Below, in pieces: positions 1-41,318 of a DNA stretch of 42,850 nucleotides. The stretch is taken from UHGV virus genome UHGV-0182515. One strand, written 5' to 3'. A program made the position numbers and the translations under genes. The notes beneath the pieces are model-generated. The model was given only the letters and a program-made list of their open reading frames with translations. It searched no databases and had not been told where the DNA came from. The number at the start of each line of letters is the position of its first letter. The first letter of the stretch is position 1. This DNA is from a virus.

Positions 1-552
1 TATAACATTTTTGATCAACAACTCTTTCCTGTCTTTTATGCAGGTTTATTCGAATCCCACGATGTAGGAACGCGCCTGTATGGTTATCTCAACTCATTCC
101 AGGTGGTACTCGAAGCGCTGTGCATGGCGATTATTCCTTTCTTTGTGAATCGGGTAGGGCCAAAAAATGCATTACTTATCGGTGTTGTGATTATGGCGTT
201 GCGTATCCTTTCCTGCGCGCTATTCGTTAACCCCTGGATTATTTCATTAGTGAAGCTGTTACATGCCATTGAGGTTCCACTTTGTGTCATATCCGTCTTC
301 AAATACAGCGTGGCAAATTTTGATAAGCGCCTGTCGTCGACGATCTTTCTGATTGGTTTTCAAATTGCCAGTTCGTTGGGGATTGTGCTGCTTTCAACGC
401 CGACTGGGATACTCTTTGACCACGCAGGCTACCAGACGGTTTTTTTCGCAATTTCGGGTATTGTCTGCCTGATGTTGCTATTTGGCATTTTCTTCCTGAG
501 TAAAAAACGTGAGCAAATAGTGATGGAAACGCCAGTACCTTCAGCAATATAA
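1..552 (+). CDS. LacY-family sugar:H+ symporter, C-terminal part (5' end lies outside the window); possibly a CscB-type sucrose permease
   Basis: Frame is open from base 1 to the stop at 550-552. The translation is hydrophobic with TM-like segments and aligns with the C-terminal half of LacY-type permeases (GTRLYGY..NRVGPKNALL..FKYSV). The CscB assignment is an inference from the argW-adjacent position. Confidence 0.6.
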   Translation, partial: YNIFDQQLFPVFYAGLFESHDVGTRLYGYLNSFQVVLEALCMAIIPFFVNRVGPKNALLIGVVIMALRILSCALFVNPWIISLVKLLHAIEVPLCVISVFKYSVANFDKRLSSTIFLIGFQIASSLGIVLLSTPTGILFDHAGYQTVFFAISGIVCLMLLFGIFFLSKKREQIVMETPVPSAI

Positions 553-991
553 ACGTAAACTTTTTCCGGTTGTTGTCGATAGCTCTATATCCCTCAACCG
601 GAAAATAATAATACCAAAATGCTTAGCCCTGCTAATAATCGCCTAATCCAAACGCCTCATTCATGTTCTGGTACAGTCGCTCAAATGTACTCCGGATACA
701 CGGCTCGCTGATTTCCAGGGCATTGTCGTAATTCAGCGACCTGTCCCGTGTATCACGGGCCTGCGAATTCATCAAGGAAAGCATTGTGGAGTGAAGTATC
801 AAGTCACGCCATATTTCGCGATCAGGATTGTGTGTGATGGTTACATCGCCCAGCCCAGGGCTGTTTAGTCATCAGCGTTTTCTGACCGTGTTGAGATTTC
901 AACCTGTTGCAGGAAAAATGAGTAGATAGGGCAAATGTGCTGCCAAACTTATCTTTTACGGGGTGAAGGTAGATATCGTTTGAAGGGTATC

Positions 992-1006
992 TGGTGTCCC
1001 CTGCAG
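992..1006. repeat. attR core candidate: 15-bp direct repeat tggtgtcccctgcag identical to the 3' terminal 15 nt of argW
   Basis: Exact 15-bp match to 41244-41258, read directly from the sequence. Lies 73 bp beyond the stop of the excisionase gene. Confidence 0.6.
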
Positions 1007-1079
1007 ACATCTACTTGACGCGGCAGGGGATTGATTAGAATGGTGTTTTTTAGATGTGAGAAATATTTTACCCGCTATT

Positions 1080-1280
1080 TTACCCATTGGCGCGGCTTAA
1101 GAGCTTATTTTTGAATTCACAATGGTCACGATATAACCATCTTGCTCGCCCGTGGATAACTTTGGCTTTTGGCAGGTCGCCGGACTTAATCCGGTCGTAG
1201 ATGAAGGTTTTACCAAAGCCAGTATCGGCCATGATGAATTTCAAATCAACCAGTGAATCAGGCTGTAGTTCGTGTTGCAT
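1080..1280 (-). CDS. torI: Excisionase / recombination directionality factor, TorI/AlpA-like (66 aa)
   Basis: 66-aa protein MQHELQPDSLVDLKFIMADTGFGKTFIYDRIKSGDLPKAKVIHGRARWLYRDHCEFKNKLLSRANG, recognised as TorI/AlpA family; sits at the prophage end opposite the integrase. Confidence 0.75.
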   Translation of the reverse strand: MQHELQPDSLVDLKFIMADTGFGKTFIYDRIKSGDLPKAKVIHGRARWLYRDHCEFKNKLLSRANG

Positions 1281-12127: not shown

Positions 12128-13500
12128 GACAGGATATCGAAGCGAGCGTTATCGGTGGCCTGCTGATTGGTGGATTAACTCCAACCGCCAGCGACGTTCT
12201 GGCAACGCTGGAGCCGGAAGCGTTTTCAATTCCGCTCTACCGGAAAGCCTTCGAGGTTATCCGCAAGCAGGCGCGAAACAGAAATTTAATCGACGCGCTG
12301 ATGGTTGCCGAGGCGTGCGGAGAGGAGCATTTCACGTCAATCCTGATGACCAGCAAAAACTGCCCGAGTGCCGCAAACCTGAAGGGATATGCCGGAATGG
12401 TCGCGGATAACTATCACCGCCGTCTGGTGCTGGAAATCATGGATGAAATGCGTGAACCAATTCAGAGCGGAACCATCGACGCATCGAGTCAGGCGATGGA
12501 TGAACTTGTAAAGCGTCTTTCAGCCATCAGAAAGCCCCGTGACGAGGTTAAACCGGTACGGTTAGGGGAAATCATCACTGACTACACTGACACGCTTGAC
12601 AGGCGTCTGAGGAACGGAGAAGAGTCAGATACCCTGAAGACCGGAATCGACGAACTTGACGCCATCACCGGAGGGATGAACGCAGAAGACCTGGTGATTA
12701 TCGCCGCTCGTCCCGGTATGGGTAAAACCGAACTGGCGCTGAAGATTGCCGAAGGCGTTGCAAGCCGCGTTATTCCTGGTTCTGACGTCCGGCGCGGAGT
12801 GTTGATTTTCTCAATGGAAATGAGCGCATTGCAGATTGCAGAGCGAAGTATTGCCAACGCCGGGAGGATGTCGGTTAGTGTGCTGCGAAATCCTGCATCG
12901 ATGGATGACGAAGGCTGGGCGCGCGTTGCTAACGGCATGAGTCAGCTTGCAGATTTGGATGTATGGGTAGTCGATGCCTCGCGGTTATCGGTCGAAGAAA
13001 TACGCTCAATCGCAGAACGGCACAAACAGGAAAATCCAAACCTGTCACTCATCATGGTGGATTATCTTGGCCTGATTGAGAAGCCGAAAGCAGATCGCAA
13101 CGACCTCGCAATTGCTCACATCTCCGGAAGCCTGAAGGCGATGGCGAAAGACCTGAAAACGCCTGTTATCTCCCTGAGTCAGCTTTCGCGCGATGTTGAG
13201 AAGCGACCAAACAAACGCCCGACAAACGCAGATTTGCGTGATTCAGGAAGCATTGAACAGGACGCAGACTCAATCATCATGCTCTATCGGGAAGCTGTAT
13301 ATGACGAGAACAGTAGCGCCGCGCCATTTGCTGAAATCATTGTGACGAAAAACCGTTTTGGCTCACTTGGTACGGTTTACCAGCGGTTCTGCAACGGACA
13401 CTTTGTTGCATGTGACCAGGATGAAGCCAGACAGATTTGCACAGCATCAAATGCACCTGCTGCGCGTGGCAGACGATATGCACAAGGGGCTGACGTATGA
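12124..13500 (+). CDS. Replicative DNA helicase, DnaB family
   Basis: Walker [13 protein letters not shown] and conserved DnaB C-terminal motifs; start overlaps the stop of the O-like gene. Confidence 0.85.
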
Positions 13501-26303: not shown

Positions 26304-26531
26304 TTGGTGGGGCTTCGGCCCCATTTTTATTGGGAGAAGACAATGGCACGAACAATGCTCTATAAGCCGGGCAACATGATCACCTGTGGTCAGTTTGCTG
26401 TCGATTACATCATTGTTGATGACGAAGAAGTTAAATCTCACCTGAAAAAAGGTTGGGTAAAAACTCCTGAAGAAACCGCAACGAAGCAAAAAGTGGCTAA
26501 GGCGGAAGAAGATGGCGAAAACGAAGGGTGA
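26304..26531 (+). CDS. Hypothetical small protein between coat and gp4
   Basis: Short ORF; the real start may be the internal ATG at 26343. Confidence 0.35.
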   Translation: MVGLRPHFYWEKTMARTMLYKPGNMITCGQFAVDYIIVDDEEVKSHLKKGWVKTPEETATKQKVAKAEEDGENEG

Positions 26532-37242: not shown

Positions 37243-39726
37243 ATGTTTATTATGCCAGAACAATTATACAACGTAGTTGTTTCACAACCAAGTCAGTTAT
37301 TTACTTTAGCTCGCTCGTTTAAAGCAAATGCCAATGGCAAAATTTATATCGGTAAAATTGACACTGACCCGGTAAATCCAGAAAACCAGATTCAGGTTTA
37401 TGTAGAGAACGAAGACGGCTCTCACGTTCCTGTTTCGCAACCAATCATCATTAACGCTGCCGGATATCCGGTATATAACGGACAGATTGCCAAATTCGTT
37501 ACCGTGCAAGGCCATTCTATGGCTGTTTATGATGCGTATGGTGCGCAGCAGTTTTATTTTCCCAATGTGCTGAAGTATGACCCCGATCAGCTACGGCAGC
37601 AATTAGAAGATCCAGATGGCGCTAAAAAATATCCTGAGTTGCAGATGGCACGATGGAGAGATTGTGGAGATGTTAGAGGGTGGGGAGCAAAAATAGATGG
37701 GGAAACAGATGATTCAGATGCTTTTATTAAAGCTTTAAACTCTGGAAGGTCGGTTATAACAATTCCGGAAGGAATATGCATCATCAAGAAGAATATTAAC
37801 ATTCCTGAGGGGTGTTCACTGGTTGGATCTGGCATTGATTATTGGGATACATATAGACCAGCGCCTGAAAGATTATTAAAAAGTTGGAGTAAAGGAACCC
37901 ATCTTGTATTTACTGGTGATGGAGAAAAAAACAAATATTTTTTTAACATCTCTAATGAAAGACCGGTTAAAATTGTTGAGGGGATATCTTGTAAGTTCAC
38001 TGAGTTTACGAATGAAGATTCTGTAGGTGTTACTCCTGCTACACCAAAAGCCATGAGCGTAGCTGTTAGTATCAACAGGGCATCACAGTTACGCAATCTG
38101 AGAATAATGGTAAGTAAAAATGGTATTGAAGGATACAATAACCCTGATTCTTATTCATTGGGTGATAACTGGGATATAGGGTTGCATGTATACGATAGCT
38201 GTGATTCAGTTATTGATAACGTACAGATTGTCGGCTATTGGAGGGTAAAAGGACTACTACTGACAGAAAATGACGGGAGCCTTTCAATGAAGGGAAATCC
38301 TGAAAAAACGCACTTTAATAACGTTTATGTCCAGTCAGGAATCGCGATAAGGAATAGCCCTCAGATTGATCTTGTAAGTAATACTGAAAGCTCAGTGACA
38401 TTTAAACATAAAAAGTCGATGAGAATAACTTCAGTTAAACAGTTTAAAATTGCTGGCAGTGAATCAGTATATACGTATTCAGATGCATCATTTGATGGAA
38501 CTAACATCACACTATCTGGTATTTCTCCTGAAATACAAGGTACAATAAGTGTAATCAGGTTTCCGTCAATTGGTAATAATTTTAGCGGGACTGTTTTTGA
38601 GAATACAGTAGCCACTACTCTTGATCATACATCAGGTAAGCCATCAGAATACTTTGGCCTTCCTGCATCCTTTGCATTAGAGGTTGATGGTTTCCCTGTT
38701 CGTAATTTAAGGTTTGATAAATTCAAAGCTCAAACAACATTTGATAAAGGAAATTGCATTTTTGGTGATTGCCGTGATGTTAAAATAACATCATCTGAGT
38801 TTGAAAATGGAATTATGATTGCGTATAACCTGACCGAGACTCAGGGTTATACAGGAAATCTTAGATTTTTTGCTTCTGATCTTCAGAGCAGCGTTAACAC
38901 AAGTGAGTTTAAACCAAGAGACGCATTTGTAGACAATAGACAAATAAAAACGGAGTTTACTGATGGTTCGTTCATTATAAAGAACTGGAGGCCTACAGAT
39001 ACAAAAATACAATGGTCGTCTGGAGTAGATGCTATTGTTCTTAGAGAGTCACCTGACGAACAATCAAACGGAAATATTTACGGGTATCACATTGATGGTA
39101 AAAGATGGATTAATGTTAGTGGATATAACAAAGATATAAATATTTCATCAAGAAACTTAAGCGTAAAAAACCATGGTGATGACTCTACAGTTATTAATAT
39201 ATTCGGCGACTCTGGAAATATTGCCATTAAAGGTAATTTTTTACCAATTATTGATAACAGCAAATCTCTTGGTGCACCATCATTTAGATGGGCTCAGATT
39301 TATTCTGCATCCGGGACTATAAGCACATCAGATGAAACACTTAAAACAATATATGACATTACTCAGGCAGAGCGTGATGCTGCGCTGGAAATAAAGGGAA
39401 TTATATGCAAGTTCAGGTTTAATGAGTCGATTAATTTTAAAGGATTGGAGTTATCAAGGTATCATTTTGGAGTTGGCGCTCAAACCGTAGGAGATATTCT
39501 TAGAAAGCGTGGTTTAAATCCTGAGCAATATGCTTTTTGGTGTTACGATGAATGGCCAGACGTATGGGATGAAGAGGTGATAACTGAAGAGAGCACAGAT
39601 CCTGATACAGGTGAGAAAATTTATTCTCAATATAAAACAGGAAATATGATTCTTGTAAAAAAAGCAGGTGGACGCTACGGAATTCGTTATGACGAATTGG
39701 CTATGTTTATATTAATGGCAATGTAG
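37243..39726 (+). CDS. Tailspike protein (P22-type head-binding N-domain, distinct receptor-binding domain, C-terminal intramolecular chaperone)
   Basis: N-terminal about 120 aa resemble P22 gp9 ([46 protein letters not shown]); the C-terminal about 130 aa carry an SDETLK motif typical of the self-cleaving chaperone domain (peptidase S74 type). Confidence 0.8.
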
Positions 39727-39923: not shown

Positions 39924-41081
39924 TCACTCCACCTTCTCATCAATCCAGTCCGCCCACCACTGCATCATCTCCCTGCGCTTATCGAGATATTGCGCATGGT
40001 TGTAAATACCGCGCACAGATCCGCCGTTGGCATGTGCCAGTTGCACTTCAATAGCATCAGCAGGCCATTCGTGCTCGTTCATAATCGTGCTGAATTCATG
40101 CCTGAATCCGTGACCGCTTTCCAGCCCTTCATAGCCAATTTGTTTGATCACAAGCAATACCGCGTTCTCGCAGATTGGCTTCTTCTTATCGTTGCGCCCG
40201 GCAAAAACAAACTCTGACACTGGTTTAGTGATTGAGCTTAGCGTAGTGAGAAGTTCAATCACCTGGTCTGACATAGGAACCACATGAATTTTTCGCCCCT
40301 TCATCACACTGGCGTCGATGGTGATAATCCTGTTTTCAAAATCGACGTTCTTCCATTGCATGGAACGAAGCTCTTTCGTTCTTAGGGCTGTGTAGCGTAA
40401 AACTTTGGTCGCAATGAGCGATACGATGCTTCCTGAAAATGTTGCCAGTGCTTTGTTGAATGCAGGGATCTGGTCTGCTGGAAGAAACGGGAAGTTCTTC
40501 TTGCGGTATCCTTTCATGGCGTCTGCAAGGTCAGGTGCCGGGTTATATTTAGCCCTTCCGGTGACAATAGCGTAACGAAAAACCTCGCCGCATCTTCTGC
40601 GGGCTTTGTTGGCTCGCTCCATTGCACCGCGATCTTCAAATCTGCGGATTACTTCCAGCAGTTGCATCGGCTCAATATCCTGAATCTCAAGACCGCCGAT
40701 GATGGGTAAAATGTCGTCATCAAACATTTTGGCAAGTTCAGTTGCATAGCCTACTGACCAGACTTGCTTCTTGTGCTCGTACCATTCCTTGTAAATCGCA
40801 CTAAAGGAATTGTTGTTAGACGAAGCCTTTTTCGCTTTTACCGGATCGATGCCAACCGAGATGTCTTTCCTCGCAGTCCATGCTTTATCCCTTGCCTCCT
40901 GCAAAGTCATAAGCGGATATTTTCCTACGGTCAGGATTTTCTCCTTACCGTCAATCTTGTAGCGAAGCTGCCATACCTTTTTCCCTGACACAGGGACATA
41001 AAGGTACAGGCCATTACCATCGAGTAGGCGGTATGGTTTTTCTTTCGGCTTTGCTGCTTCAATCTGCTTAACGGTGAGCAT
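39924..41081 (-). CDS. intS: Tyrosine integrase, IntS/P4 family (ATG at 41081; an upstream GTG at 41117 is also in frame)
   Basis: C-terminal catalytic region ...HGFRHEFSTIMNE...LAHANGGSVRGIYNHAQY (catalytic Tyr) and N-terminus MLTVKQIEAAKPKEKPYRL..; adjacent to the tRNA. Confidence 0.9.
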   Translation of the reverse strand: MLTVKQIEAAKPKEKPYRLLDGNGLYLYVPVSGKKVWQLRYKIDGKEKILTVGKYPLMTLQEARDKAWTARKDISVGIDPVKAKKASSNNNSFSAIYKEWYEHKKQVWSVGYATELAKMFDDDILPIIGGLEIQDIEPMQLLEVIRRFEDRGAMERANKARRRCGEVFRYAIVTGRAKYNPAPDLADAMKGYRKKNFPFLPADQIPAFNKALATFSGSIVSLIATKVLRYTALRTKELRSMQWKNVDFENRIITIDASVMKGRKIHVVPMSDQVIELLTTLSSITKPVSEFVFAGRNDKKKPICENAVLLVIKQIGYEGLESGHGFRHEFSTIMNEHEWPADAIEVQLAHANGGSVRGIYNHAQYLDKRREMMQWWADWIDEKVE

Positions 41082-41243
41082 GGGTAAAAATCCGGTGGGT
41101 AAAATTATTTTATCCACTTTTTACCCGTCATGGAGTGCGGCTGTCAACGATCTGACGTGAACCATTACGAACTGTAAATCTACGGAAGGCTTGATATTCA
41201 GGGGATTTTGCGGACTGCTACGGATGGGAGCGAACTGATAAAT

Positions 41244-41258
41244 GGTGTCCCCTGCAGG
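41244..41258. repeat. attL core candidate (15 bp, identical to 992-1006), the 3' end of argW
   Basis: Exact direct repeat read from the sequence. Confidence 0.6.
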
Positions 41259-41318
41259 AATCGAACCTGCAATTAGCCCTTAGGAGGGGCTCGTTATATC
41301 CATTTAACTAAGAGGACA
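41244..41318 (-). tRNA. argW: tRNA-Arg (anticodon CCU)
   Basis: Reverse complement GTCCTCTTAGTTAAATGGATATAACGAGCCCCTCCTAAGGGCTAATTGCAGGTTCGATTCCTGCAGGGGACACCA folds as a cloverleaf with 7-bp acceptor stem, T-loop GGTTCGATTCC, anticodon loop CUCCUAA and CCA end. Confidence 0.85.

What the first reader, a model, noticed from the sequence alone, without database searches (positions are those of the whole stretch)
41082..41126. Repeated TTTTACCC / GGGTAAAA motifs at both prophage ends: candidate integrase arm or excisionase binding sites
GGGTAAAA occurs at 41082-41089 and 41097-41104, with TTTTACCC at 41119-41126, all immediately upstream of intS. TTTTACCC occurs twice at the other end (1066-1073 and 1077-1084) across the torI stop. 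Clustered 8-bp repeats next to att cores are typical of recombinase arm-type or directionality-factor sites, and they overlap the likely intS promoter.
Basis: partly seen in the sequence, partly recalled or inferred. Interest (0 to 1): 0.35.

Follow-up and report, generated by a model that had tools for sequence, protein, structure and literature searches.

The report
Known IntS integrase arm-binding sites
The repeated GGGTAAAA/TTTTACCC boxes at both ends of this E. coli argW prophage are the integrase (IntS) arm-type binding sites already mapped in the KplE1/HK620/Sf6 recombination module, so the finding is real but ordinary.

Summary
GGGTAAAA occurs 9 times in the window against 1.0 expected, and 5 copies lie in the two att arms. 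One coordinate is off by one: 1078-1085, not 1077-1084.

The window is the E. coli argW locus carrying a ~40 kb P22-like prophage with the intS/torI recombination module. The stretch from the -35 box to the intS ATG, and the P arm next to torI, are base-for-base identical to K-12 KplE1 (CPS-53). In K-12, four IntS arm-type sites (P'1-P'4, all containing TAAA) were mapped and mutated. P'1 overlaps the -10 box of PintS, and IntS represses its own gene there (PMC2951348).

The excisionase TorI binds a different motif (GTTCG/GATCG/GTCCG), found at five other positions on the intS side only. The HK620 GenBank record already annotates these same boxes as attP repeats.

Comparison with relatives adds support. 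The boxes keep their offsets from the core in Klebsiella and Erwinia phage attP sites. In a more distant integrase clade, five of the six change together to GGGCAYA while the TorI-type boxes stay.

Verdict: integrase arm sites, not excisionase sites. Already known, low interest.

The parts
992..1006 (-). attR copy of the att core (CTGCAGGGGACACCA on the minus strand). The 16th base of the K-12 core differs here: C at 991.
   Evidence: Exact 15-nt duplicate of 41243-41257. The K-12 core is given as CTGCAGGGGACACCAT in PMC2951348.
1066..1073 (-). P-arm IntS arm-type box GGGTAAAA, the one nearer the core. I call it P2 by lambda convention; the name is my inference.
   Evidence: Identical in K-12 and HK620. 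Lies inside the HK620 'repeat_region attP'. Conserved at core-68 in the phage attP sites (exact GGGTAAA, or GAGTAAA in the two Klebsiella phages), and becomes GGGCATA in the Salmonella phages.
1078..1085 (-). P-arm IntS arm-type box GGGTAAAA, the distal one (P1 by lambda convention). It overlaps the last Gly codon and the TAA stop of torI.
   Evidence: Identical in K-12 and HK620. Conserved at core-80 in all phage attP sites compared, and becomes GGGCATA in the Salmonella phages. Lies inside the attR substrate used for in vitro excision, which starts at primer attR-IHF2 = window 1085-1104.
1080..1280 (-). torI, the recombination directionality factor (66 aa).
   Evidence: 100% identical to K-12 TorI and HK620 HkaC.
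39924..41081 (-). intS, a tyrosine integrase of 385 aa starting at ATG 41081. Its N-terminal arm DNA-binding domain spans residues 2-86.
   Evidence: Pfam hits Arm-DNA-bind_3, Phage_int_M and Phage_integrase. The N-terminal 210 residues are 99% identical to HK620 Int. The start matches K-12 intS.
41082..41089 (+). P'4 arm-type box (TTTTACCC in the intS direction). It abuts the intS ATG and lies in the 5' UTR.
   Evidence: Identical to K-12 attL. Four P' sites are named in PMC2951348. Conserved in 42 distinct relatives, and TTATGCCC in the second clade.
41097..41104 (+). P'3 arm-type box (TTTTACCC in the intS direction), in the 5' UTR.
   Evidence: Forms an 11-nt near-palindrome with P'2.
41108..41115 (-). 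It covers the mapped transcription start.
   Evidence: GRGTAAA in clade A relatives and GGGCAYA in clade B. It contains the TAAA that the paper says is common to all P' sites.
41119..41126 (-). P'1 arm-type box GGGTAAAA, overlapping the -10 hexamer of PintS.
   Evidence: PMC2951348 states that P'1 overlaps the -10 sequence. Sequence identical to K-12.
41118..41123 (-). -10 hexamer TAAAAA of PintS.
   Evidence: The paper gives the -10 as TAaAAa and the -35 as TTGACA. Positions located.
41142..41147 (-). -35 hexamer TTGACA of PintS.
   Evidence: Invariant or nearly so in relatives.
41111..41112 (-). intS transcription start sites (T and A), transferred from the K-12 primer-extension mapping.
   Evidence: The paper's coordinates 2464536/7 map onto T and A only if the ATG is placed at 2464567. 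This is a transfer by sequence identity, not measured here.
41148..41175 (-). TorI-binding block I3-I4-I5 (GTTCG, GTTCA, GATCG), abutting the -35 box. Coordinates are good to +/- 2 nt.
   Evidence: Block positions and motifs come from PMC2951348, mapped. I4 reads GTTCA here against GTTCG in K-12.
41211..41238 (-). TorI-binding block I1-I2 (GTTCG ... GTCCG). Coordinates are good to +/- 2 nt.
41184..41196 (-). IHF-like sequence TATCAAGCCTTCC between the two TorI blocks. This assignment is inferred only.
   Evidence: Loose pattern match. The ATCA core is conserved across the attP alignment.
41243..41257 (-). attL copy of the att core, formed by the 3' end of argW.
41243..41317 (-). argW tRNA-Arg(CCU), the integration target.
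   Evidence: ARAGORN. Matches K-12 argW.

Best explanation
The boxes are the arm-type binding sites of the heterobivalent tyrosine integrase IntS. There are six in all. Two are direct repeats in the P arm next to torI (attR). Four are in the P' arm next to intS (attL), arranged as two direct followed by two inverted copies.

The N-terminal arm-binding domain of IntS (residues 2-86) binds these boxes while the catalytic domain binds the core in argW. Together with IHF and, for excision, TorI bound to its own GTTCG-type boxes, this bridges arm and core and builds the intasome.

The P' boxes lie over the -10 box (P'1), the transcription start (P'2) and the 5' UTR up to the ATG (P'3, P'4) of intS. 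IntS bound there therefore also represses its own promoter.

Basis of each step:
- Shown here: sequence identity to the mapped K-12 sites, presence of the arm-binding domain, and conservation and concerted change among relatives.
- Taken from the literature: IntS binding, autorepression, and the TorI sites.
- Inferred: assignment of the two attR boxes to IntS, and which boxes are used in integration versus excision.
For: 1. The boxes are real and strongly over-represented in the arms.

2. The window's attL from -35 to ATG, and the attR P arm, are identical to K-12 MG1655 KplE1/CPS-53 and to HK620.

3. PMC2951348 reports the following. attL carries IntS arm-type sites P'1-P'4, all containing TAAA. 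P'1 overlaps the -10 (TAaAAa). The -35 is TTGACA. IntS represses PintS. TorI binds five separate GTTCG/GATCG/GTCCG sites.

4. IntS has the Pfam Arm-DNA-bind_3 domain at residues 2-86. Related domains have solved structures, 3ju0 and 3jtz.

5. The HK620 record annotates these same stretches as attP repeat regions.

6. In six phage attP sites at about 75-97% identity, GGGTAAA stays at fixed offsets from the core (-80, -68, +130, +153, +168). The two Klebsiella phages have GAGTAAA at -68. The flanks diverge.

7. In integrases whose arm domain is only about 56% identical, five of the six boxes change together to GGGCAYA: exact GGGCATA at -80, -68, +130 and +168, with P'2 as GGGCAYA and P'3 degenerate. 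The GTTC-type boxes and the RDF helix-turn-helix stay.

8. A sequence-identical copy inside intS (40704-40711) is not conserved at synonymous positions. It serves as a negative control.
Against: No binding experiment was or could be done here.

The two papers that mapped the sites by footprinting and mutagenesis (J Biol Chem 2007;282:21798 and Virology 2010;404:41) are not in the library. The assignment of the two attR boxes to IntS therefore rests on motif identity, co-variation and my memory of those papers.

In the PLoS Genetics study, single mutations of P'2, P'3 or P'4 did not relieve autorepression. Their regulatory role is therefore not demonstrated individually.

Conservation of P'1 could owe something to its being the -10 box.
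Confidence: 0.93

Rival explanations
1. The boxes are binding sites for the excisionase/RDF TorI.
For: RDF sites are typically short clustered repeats in one arm next to the core. TorI does bind attL and represses PintS.
Against: The mapped TorI sites are GTTCG/GATCG/GTCCG boxes at 41148-41175 and 41211-41238, a different motif.

GGGTAAAA is present in both arms, whereas GTTCG-type boxes are absent from the attR arm.

In the second clade the GGGTAAA boxes change to GGGCAYA, while the GTTC boxes and the RDF DNA-binding region are retained.
Confidence: 0.02
2. The boxes are only promoter and translation signals of intS (-10 box, start region, 5' UTR), and the resemblance to the torI-side copies is coincidental.
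For: P'1 contains the -10 hexamer, P'2 covers the transcription start, and P'3 and P'4 are in the 5' UTR with P'4 touching the ATG.
Against: Two identical boxes sit at the other prophage end, where no intS promoter exists. They are conserved at fixed offsets from the core and change in concert with the intS-side boxes.

The inverted orientation of P'3 and P'4 is not explained by promoter function.

The paper treats the boxes as IntS sites whose occupancy represses the promoter.
Confidence: 0.03
3. The boxes are chance A+T-rich repeats, or sites for a host architectural protein such as IHF or Fis.
For: The motif is short and A/T-rich. Four further exact copies occur elsewhere in the window. IHF takes part in this reaction.
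Against: The chance probability is about 1e-13.

The motif does not fit the IHF consensus. A separate IHF-like sequence exists at 41184-41196.

A host protein's site would not switch motif together with the phage integrase clade.
Confidence: 0.02

Closest known systems
IntS arm-type sites (P, P'1-P'4) of the KplE1/CPS-53 recombination module of E. coli K-12, shared with phages HK620, Sf6 and CUS-3 (Panis et al. 2007, 2010; PMC2951348)
   Same: The sequence is identical from -35 to the intS ATG and across the P arm. The core is the same, the argW target is the same, TorI is 100% identical and IntS is 99% identical over its N-terminal 210 residues. The overlap with PintS is the same.
   Different: The prophage here is a full-length ~40 kb P22-like genome rather than the 10.2 kb K-12 remnant. 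The attR core matches over 15 nt, not 16. TorI site I4 reads GTTCA instead of GTTCG. The host flank on the torI side is different. None of these touches the arm boxes.
Lambda Int arm-type sites P1, P2, P'1-P'3
   Same: Short repeats in both arms are bound by the N-terminal domain of a heterobivalent tyrosine integrase, with RDF and IHF sites interspersed (general knowledge; summarised).
   Different: The consensus differs. There are four rather than three P' sites, two of them inverted. The RDF sites are on the integrase-side arm. The int promoter lies inside the att arm, so Int autoregulates.
Satellite phage P4 integrase autoregulation
   Same: The integrase binds at its own promoter and represses it, and the RDF also lowers int expression (discussed in PMC2951348).
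   Different: P4 Vis is proposed to act on the mRNA, whereas TorI acts on DNA near the -35 box. The sequences are unrelated.

Membership tests
IntS (KplE1/HK620/Sf6-type) arm-type binding sites | Short repeated motif in both arms flanking the att core, far above chance | tested here: met
   Five exact copies and one near copy lie in 285 bp of arms, where 0.0067 are expected.
IntS (KplE1/HK620/Sf6-type) arm-type binding sites | Sequence identity with the experimentally defined K-12 attL sites P'1-P'4 (TAAA-containing, P'1 over the -10 box) | tested here: met
   The alignment is identical from -35 to ATG. The site description comes from PMC2951348.
IntS (KplE1/HK620/Sf6-type) arm-type binding sites | Adjacent integrase is heterobivalent, with an N-terminal arm DNA-binding domain | tested here: met
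   Pfam PF13356 Arm-DNA-bind_3 at residues 2-86, E = 2e-25.
IntS (KplE1/HK620/Sf6-type) arm-type binding sites | Sites conserved in position among relatives and co-varying with the integrase | tested here: met
   Offsets from the core are fixed in 8 phage attP sites. In the second clade five of the six boxes change from GGGTAAA to GGGCAYA, and P'3 is degenerate there.
IntS (KplE1/HK620/Sf6-type) arm-type binding sites | Direct binding by IntS and a requirement for recombination | not testable with these tools
   Reported for the identical K-12 attL sequence (PMC2951348 and its refs 13 and 26). Those primary mapping papers are not held.
TorI (RDF) binding sites | GTTCG/GATCG/GTCCG-type box, in two blocks on attL only | tested here: not met
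   GGGTAAAA is a different motif and is present on both arms. The GTTCG-type boxes lie at 41148-41175 and 41211-41238, and none is in the attR arm.
Sigma-70 promoter elements of PintS | Coincidence with the mapped -10/-35 hexamers and transcription start | tested here: met
   P'1 contains the -10 TAAAAA and P'2 covers the start. This holds for two of the six boxes only, so it is an overlap, not the identity of the repeats.

The most novel reading that the evidence does not exclude
The IntS-like integrases fall into two arm-site specificity classes. One uses GGGTAAA and the other GGGCAYA, in the same six-box layout at the same offsets from the core. Seven residue changes in the arm-binding domain are fixed between the classes (L20A, N23G, Y26F, Q38R, T51V, K54P, A67Q).

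This would be a natural swap experiment for reading the recognition code of the Arm-DNA-bind_3 domain.

In addition, P'3 and P'4 fill the 5' UTR right up to an ATG that has no Shine-Dalgarno sequence. They may add a roadblock or translational layer to intS control that the single-site mutants did not reveal.
Probability: 0.35. Interest if true: 0.3.

Novelty: already known. Interest (0 to 1): 0.08.

Why it matters
It matters little beyond correct annotation. The boxes mark a complete and probably functional attL/attR pair for a full-length P22-like prophage at argW. They also explain why intS is autorepressed and why excision is controlled through torI expression.

The same attL sequence, at 80% or more coverage, occurs in 1869 of 5426 complete E. 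coli genomes. The module is therefore very common.

The only mildly useful by-product is the two-class co-variation of arm box and arm domain. It could guide engineering of integrase arm specificity.

Tried and rejected
- The two primary mapping papers (PubMed 17545146 and 20494389) could not be fetched. The naming of the attR boxes as P1 and P2 is therefore by analogy.

- The simple promoter scan did not report PintS. Its rule requires T at position 6 of the second hexamer, and this -10 is TAAAAA. It gave an unrelated weak hit instead. I relied on the published primer-extension mapping.

- Pfam gave no hit for the 66-aa TorI at E <= 0.001. Its identity was settled by the 100% match to K-12 TorI.

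- I fetched the matching region of strain Combat2C1 hoping for an annotation of the whole window. That prophage carries an IS100 insertion and is about 2.7 kb longer, so it is not the same sequence throughout.

- I considered the exact copy inside intS (40704-40711, annotated as an attP repeat in HK620) as a seventh site. I rejected it. It encodes Ile-Leu-Pro, and relatives keep the amino acids with different codons.

- I searched for extra degenerate att cores that would suggest tandem elements and found none.

Full report
**What is in the sequence**

The window is the argW region of an Escherichia coli chromosome. A tRNA-Arg(CCU) gene lies at 41243-41317 on the minus strand. Its 3' end, CTGCAGGGGACACCA, is repeated exactly at 992-1006. 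The two copies bracket about 40.25 kb of P22-like phage genes: tailspike, portal, terminase, and the O/P replication genes. The best mosaic matches are CUS-3, Kapi1 and phiv205-1.

Just inside the argW end is a 385-aa tyrosine integrase gene at 39924-41081 (minus strand). Just inside the other end is a 66-aa gene at 1080-1280 (minus strand). That gene's product is 100% identical to TorI of K-12 and to HkaC of HK620.

**Check of the observation**

The second torI-side copy is at 1078-1085, not 1077-1084.

The window has 9 exact copies against 1.0 expected from shuffles, and none of 100 shuffles reached 9. Five copies fall in the 285 bp of att arm, where 0.0067 are expected (P about 1e-13).

The repeat finder recovers them independently. 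It also shows that the intS-side copies form nested inverted repeats.

Read in the direction of intS, the P' arm is GGGTAAAA (P'1), GGATAAAA (P'2), TTTTACCC (P'3), TTTTACCC (P'4), then ATG.

**What it is**

The stretch from the -35 hexamer to the intS ATG is identical, base for base, to the attL of the cryptic prophage KplE1 (CPS-53) of K-12 MG1655 and to the attP of phage HK620. The P arm next to torI is identical as well.

That K-12 sequence has been studied directly. Panis et al. (PLoS Genet 2010, PMC2951348) report the following:
- attL carries IntS arm-type sites P'1 to P'4, all containing TAAA, which they mutated to ATTT.
- P'1 overlaps the -10 box (TAaAAa), and the -35 is TTGACA.
- Transcription starts at a T and an A a few bases downstream.
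- IntS represses its own promoter.
- The excisionase TorI binds five separate sites (I1-I5) with the sequences GTTCG, GATCG and GTCCG. I4 and I5, next to the -35 box, mediate TorI repression.

Mapped onto the window, these elements are:

| Element | Window coordinates |
|---|---|
| -35 | 41142-41147 |
| -10 | 41118-41123, inside P'1 |
| Transcription starts | 41112 / 41111, inside P'2 |
| TorI blocks | 41148-41175 and 41211-41238 |

The primers used for the published in vitro excision substrates match the window. The attR substrate begins at 1104 and so contains both torI-side boxes. The HK620 GenBank record already annotates the same three stretches as attP repeat regions.

**Independent support from the protein and from relatives**

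IntS has the Pfam arm DNA-binding domain at residues 2-86, followed by the central and catalytic domains. It is therefore the heterobivalent kind of integrase that needs arm sites.

In the attP regions of Klebsiella and Erwinia phages, which are about 75-80% identical, the flanks diverge. GGGTAAA nevertheless stays at the same offsets from the core: -80, -68, +130, +153 and +168. The two Klebsiella phages have GAGTAAA at -68.

In Salmonella phages Emek and S.Inf 5-2, five of the six boxes read GGGCAYA instead. Exact GGGCATA sits at offsets -80, -68, +130 and +168, P'2 reads GGGCACA, and P'3 is degenerate. The GTTC-type boxes and the DNA-binding part of the RDF are kept.

A scan of one genome per bacterial species gave 42 distinct integrase-upstream regions with the same picture. 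A GGGTAAA class has arm domains about 79% identical to IntS. A GGGCAYA class has arm domains about 56% identical, with seven residue differences fixed between the classes.

A motif that changes at nearly all its copies at once, on both arms, together with the integrase and not with the RDF, is what arm-type sites should do.

As a negative control, the exact copy inside intS (40704-40711) encodes Ile-Leu-Pro. It is not kept at the DNA level in relatives.

**How it most likely works**

IntS protomers hold an arm box with the N-terminal domain and a core site with the C-terminal domains. IHF bends, and for excision the TorI filament on I1-I5, shape the arms so that attL and attR synapse.

The four P' boxes cover the -10 box, the transcription start and the whole 5' UTR of intS. 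The same binding therefore shuts off PintS and keeps IntS low and constant. Excision is then triggered by torI expression.

Basis of each step:
- Binding and autorepression are published for the identical sequence.
- Assignment of the two attR boxes to IntS is inferred from motif identity, position and co-variation, and from my memory of the 2007 and 2010 mapping papers, which are not held.
- Which boxes serve integration and which serve excision was not addressed here.

**Rivals**

- TorI sites: contradicted by the distinct, mapped TorI motif, and by the presence of GGGTAAAA on the arm that has no TorI-type box.
- Pure promoter signals: cannot explain the torI-side copies or the inverted pair.
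- Chance, or host-factor sites: excluded by the statistics and by the clade-linked motif switch.

**Comparison, novelty and score**

This is the KplE1/HK620/Sf6 recombination module itself, not merely something like it. All sequence-testable defining features are met. The differences from K-12 lie outside the arm boxes:
- a full-length prophage rather than a remnant;
- a 15-nt rather than 16-nt core duplication;
- GTTCA instead of GTTCG in TorI site I4;
- a different host flank on the torI side.

The attL sequence, at 80% or more coverage, is found in 1869 of 5426 complete E. coli genomes.

The finding is correct but already known, and I score it low. The only mildly new by-product is the two-class co-variation of arm box and arm-binding domain.

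Noticed in passing
With P'3 it forms an 11-nt near-palindrome (41095-41105 / 41107-41117). It also covers the mapped intS transcription start.
   Followed up: yes
window 41158-41162 (-): TorI site I4 reads GTTCA here. It is GTTCG in K-12, HK620, Sf6 and all diverged phage relatives aligned. I4 is one of the two sites needed for TorI repression of PintS in K-12, so TorI control of intS might be weaker in this prophage.
   Followed up: partly
window 40704-40711 (+), inside intS: This is an exact GGGTAAAA copy, and the HK620 record annotates the equivalent stretch as an attP repeat. It encodes Ile-Leu-Pro. Relatives keep the residues with other codons, so it looks like a coding coincidence and not a site.
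   Followed up: yes
window 12720-12727, 26455-26462, 38243-38250: Three further exact GGGTAAAA copies lie inside the prophage body. With the intS copy, that makes four outside the arms against about one expected. This is probably chance.
   Followed up: no
window 991 and 41242: The 16th base of the K-12 core (CTGCAGGGGACACCAT) is kept at attL but not at attR, where 991 is C. The exact duplication is therefore 15 nt here.
   Followed up: yes
window 41079-41117 (-): The longest intS ORF starts at GTG 41117. The mapped transcription starts (41112/41111) lie downstream of it, so the real start is ATG 41081. There is no Shine-Dalgarno sequence before that ATG. P'4 abuts it, and only a CGGA 11-14 nt upstream is conserved in both integrase clades.
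   Followed up: partly
loci L006, L008, L034-L051 (integrase-upstream regions of Salmonella phages and Enterobacter, Pantoea and Kluyvera genomes): A second integrase clade has the same box layout but with GGGCAYA. Seven residue changes in the arm-binding domain are fixed between the clades (L20A, N23G, Y26F, Q38R, T51V, K54P, A67Q). More distant relatives in Acinetobacter and the Rhodobacterales show yet other repeats upstream of int.
   Followed up: partly
window 997-1004 / 1023-1030 and 41199-41205 / 41248-41254: Part of the core (CAGGGGA) recurs in inverted orientation in each arm, as TCCCCTG, 18 nt and 42 nt from the core. It is partly conserved in the Klebsiella and Erwinia attP sites. 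It may be an extra core-type half-site or may have no function.
   Followed up: no
window 1-991: The host flank on the torI side is the end of an oligosaccharide MFS transporter gene (103-552) plus a fragment annotated in other strains as a DUF4942 protein. In K-12 this flank is dsdC.
   Followed up: partly
window 1007-41242: This is a full-length ~40 kb P22-like prophage: tailspike of 827 aa at 37243-39726, portal, terminase, O/P-type replication genes, and Arc/antirepressor immI-like genes by comparison with strain Combat2C1. It uses the same recombination module as the 10.2 kb K-12 remnant. The nearest strains differ by an IS100 insertion or by about 0.3 kb.
   Followed up: partly
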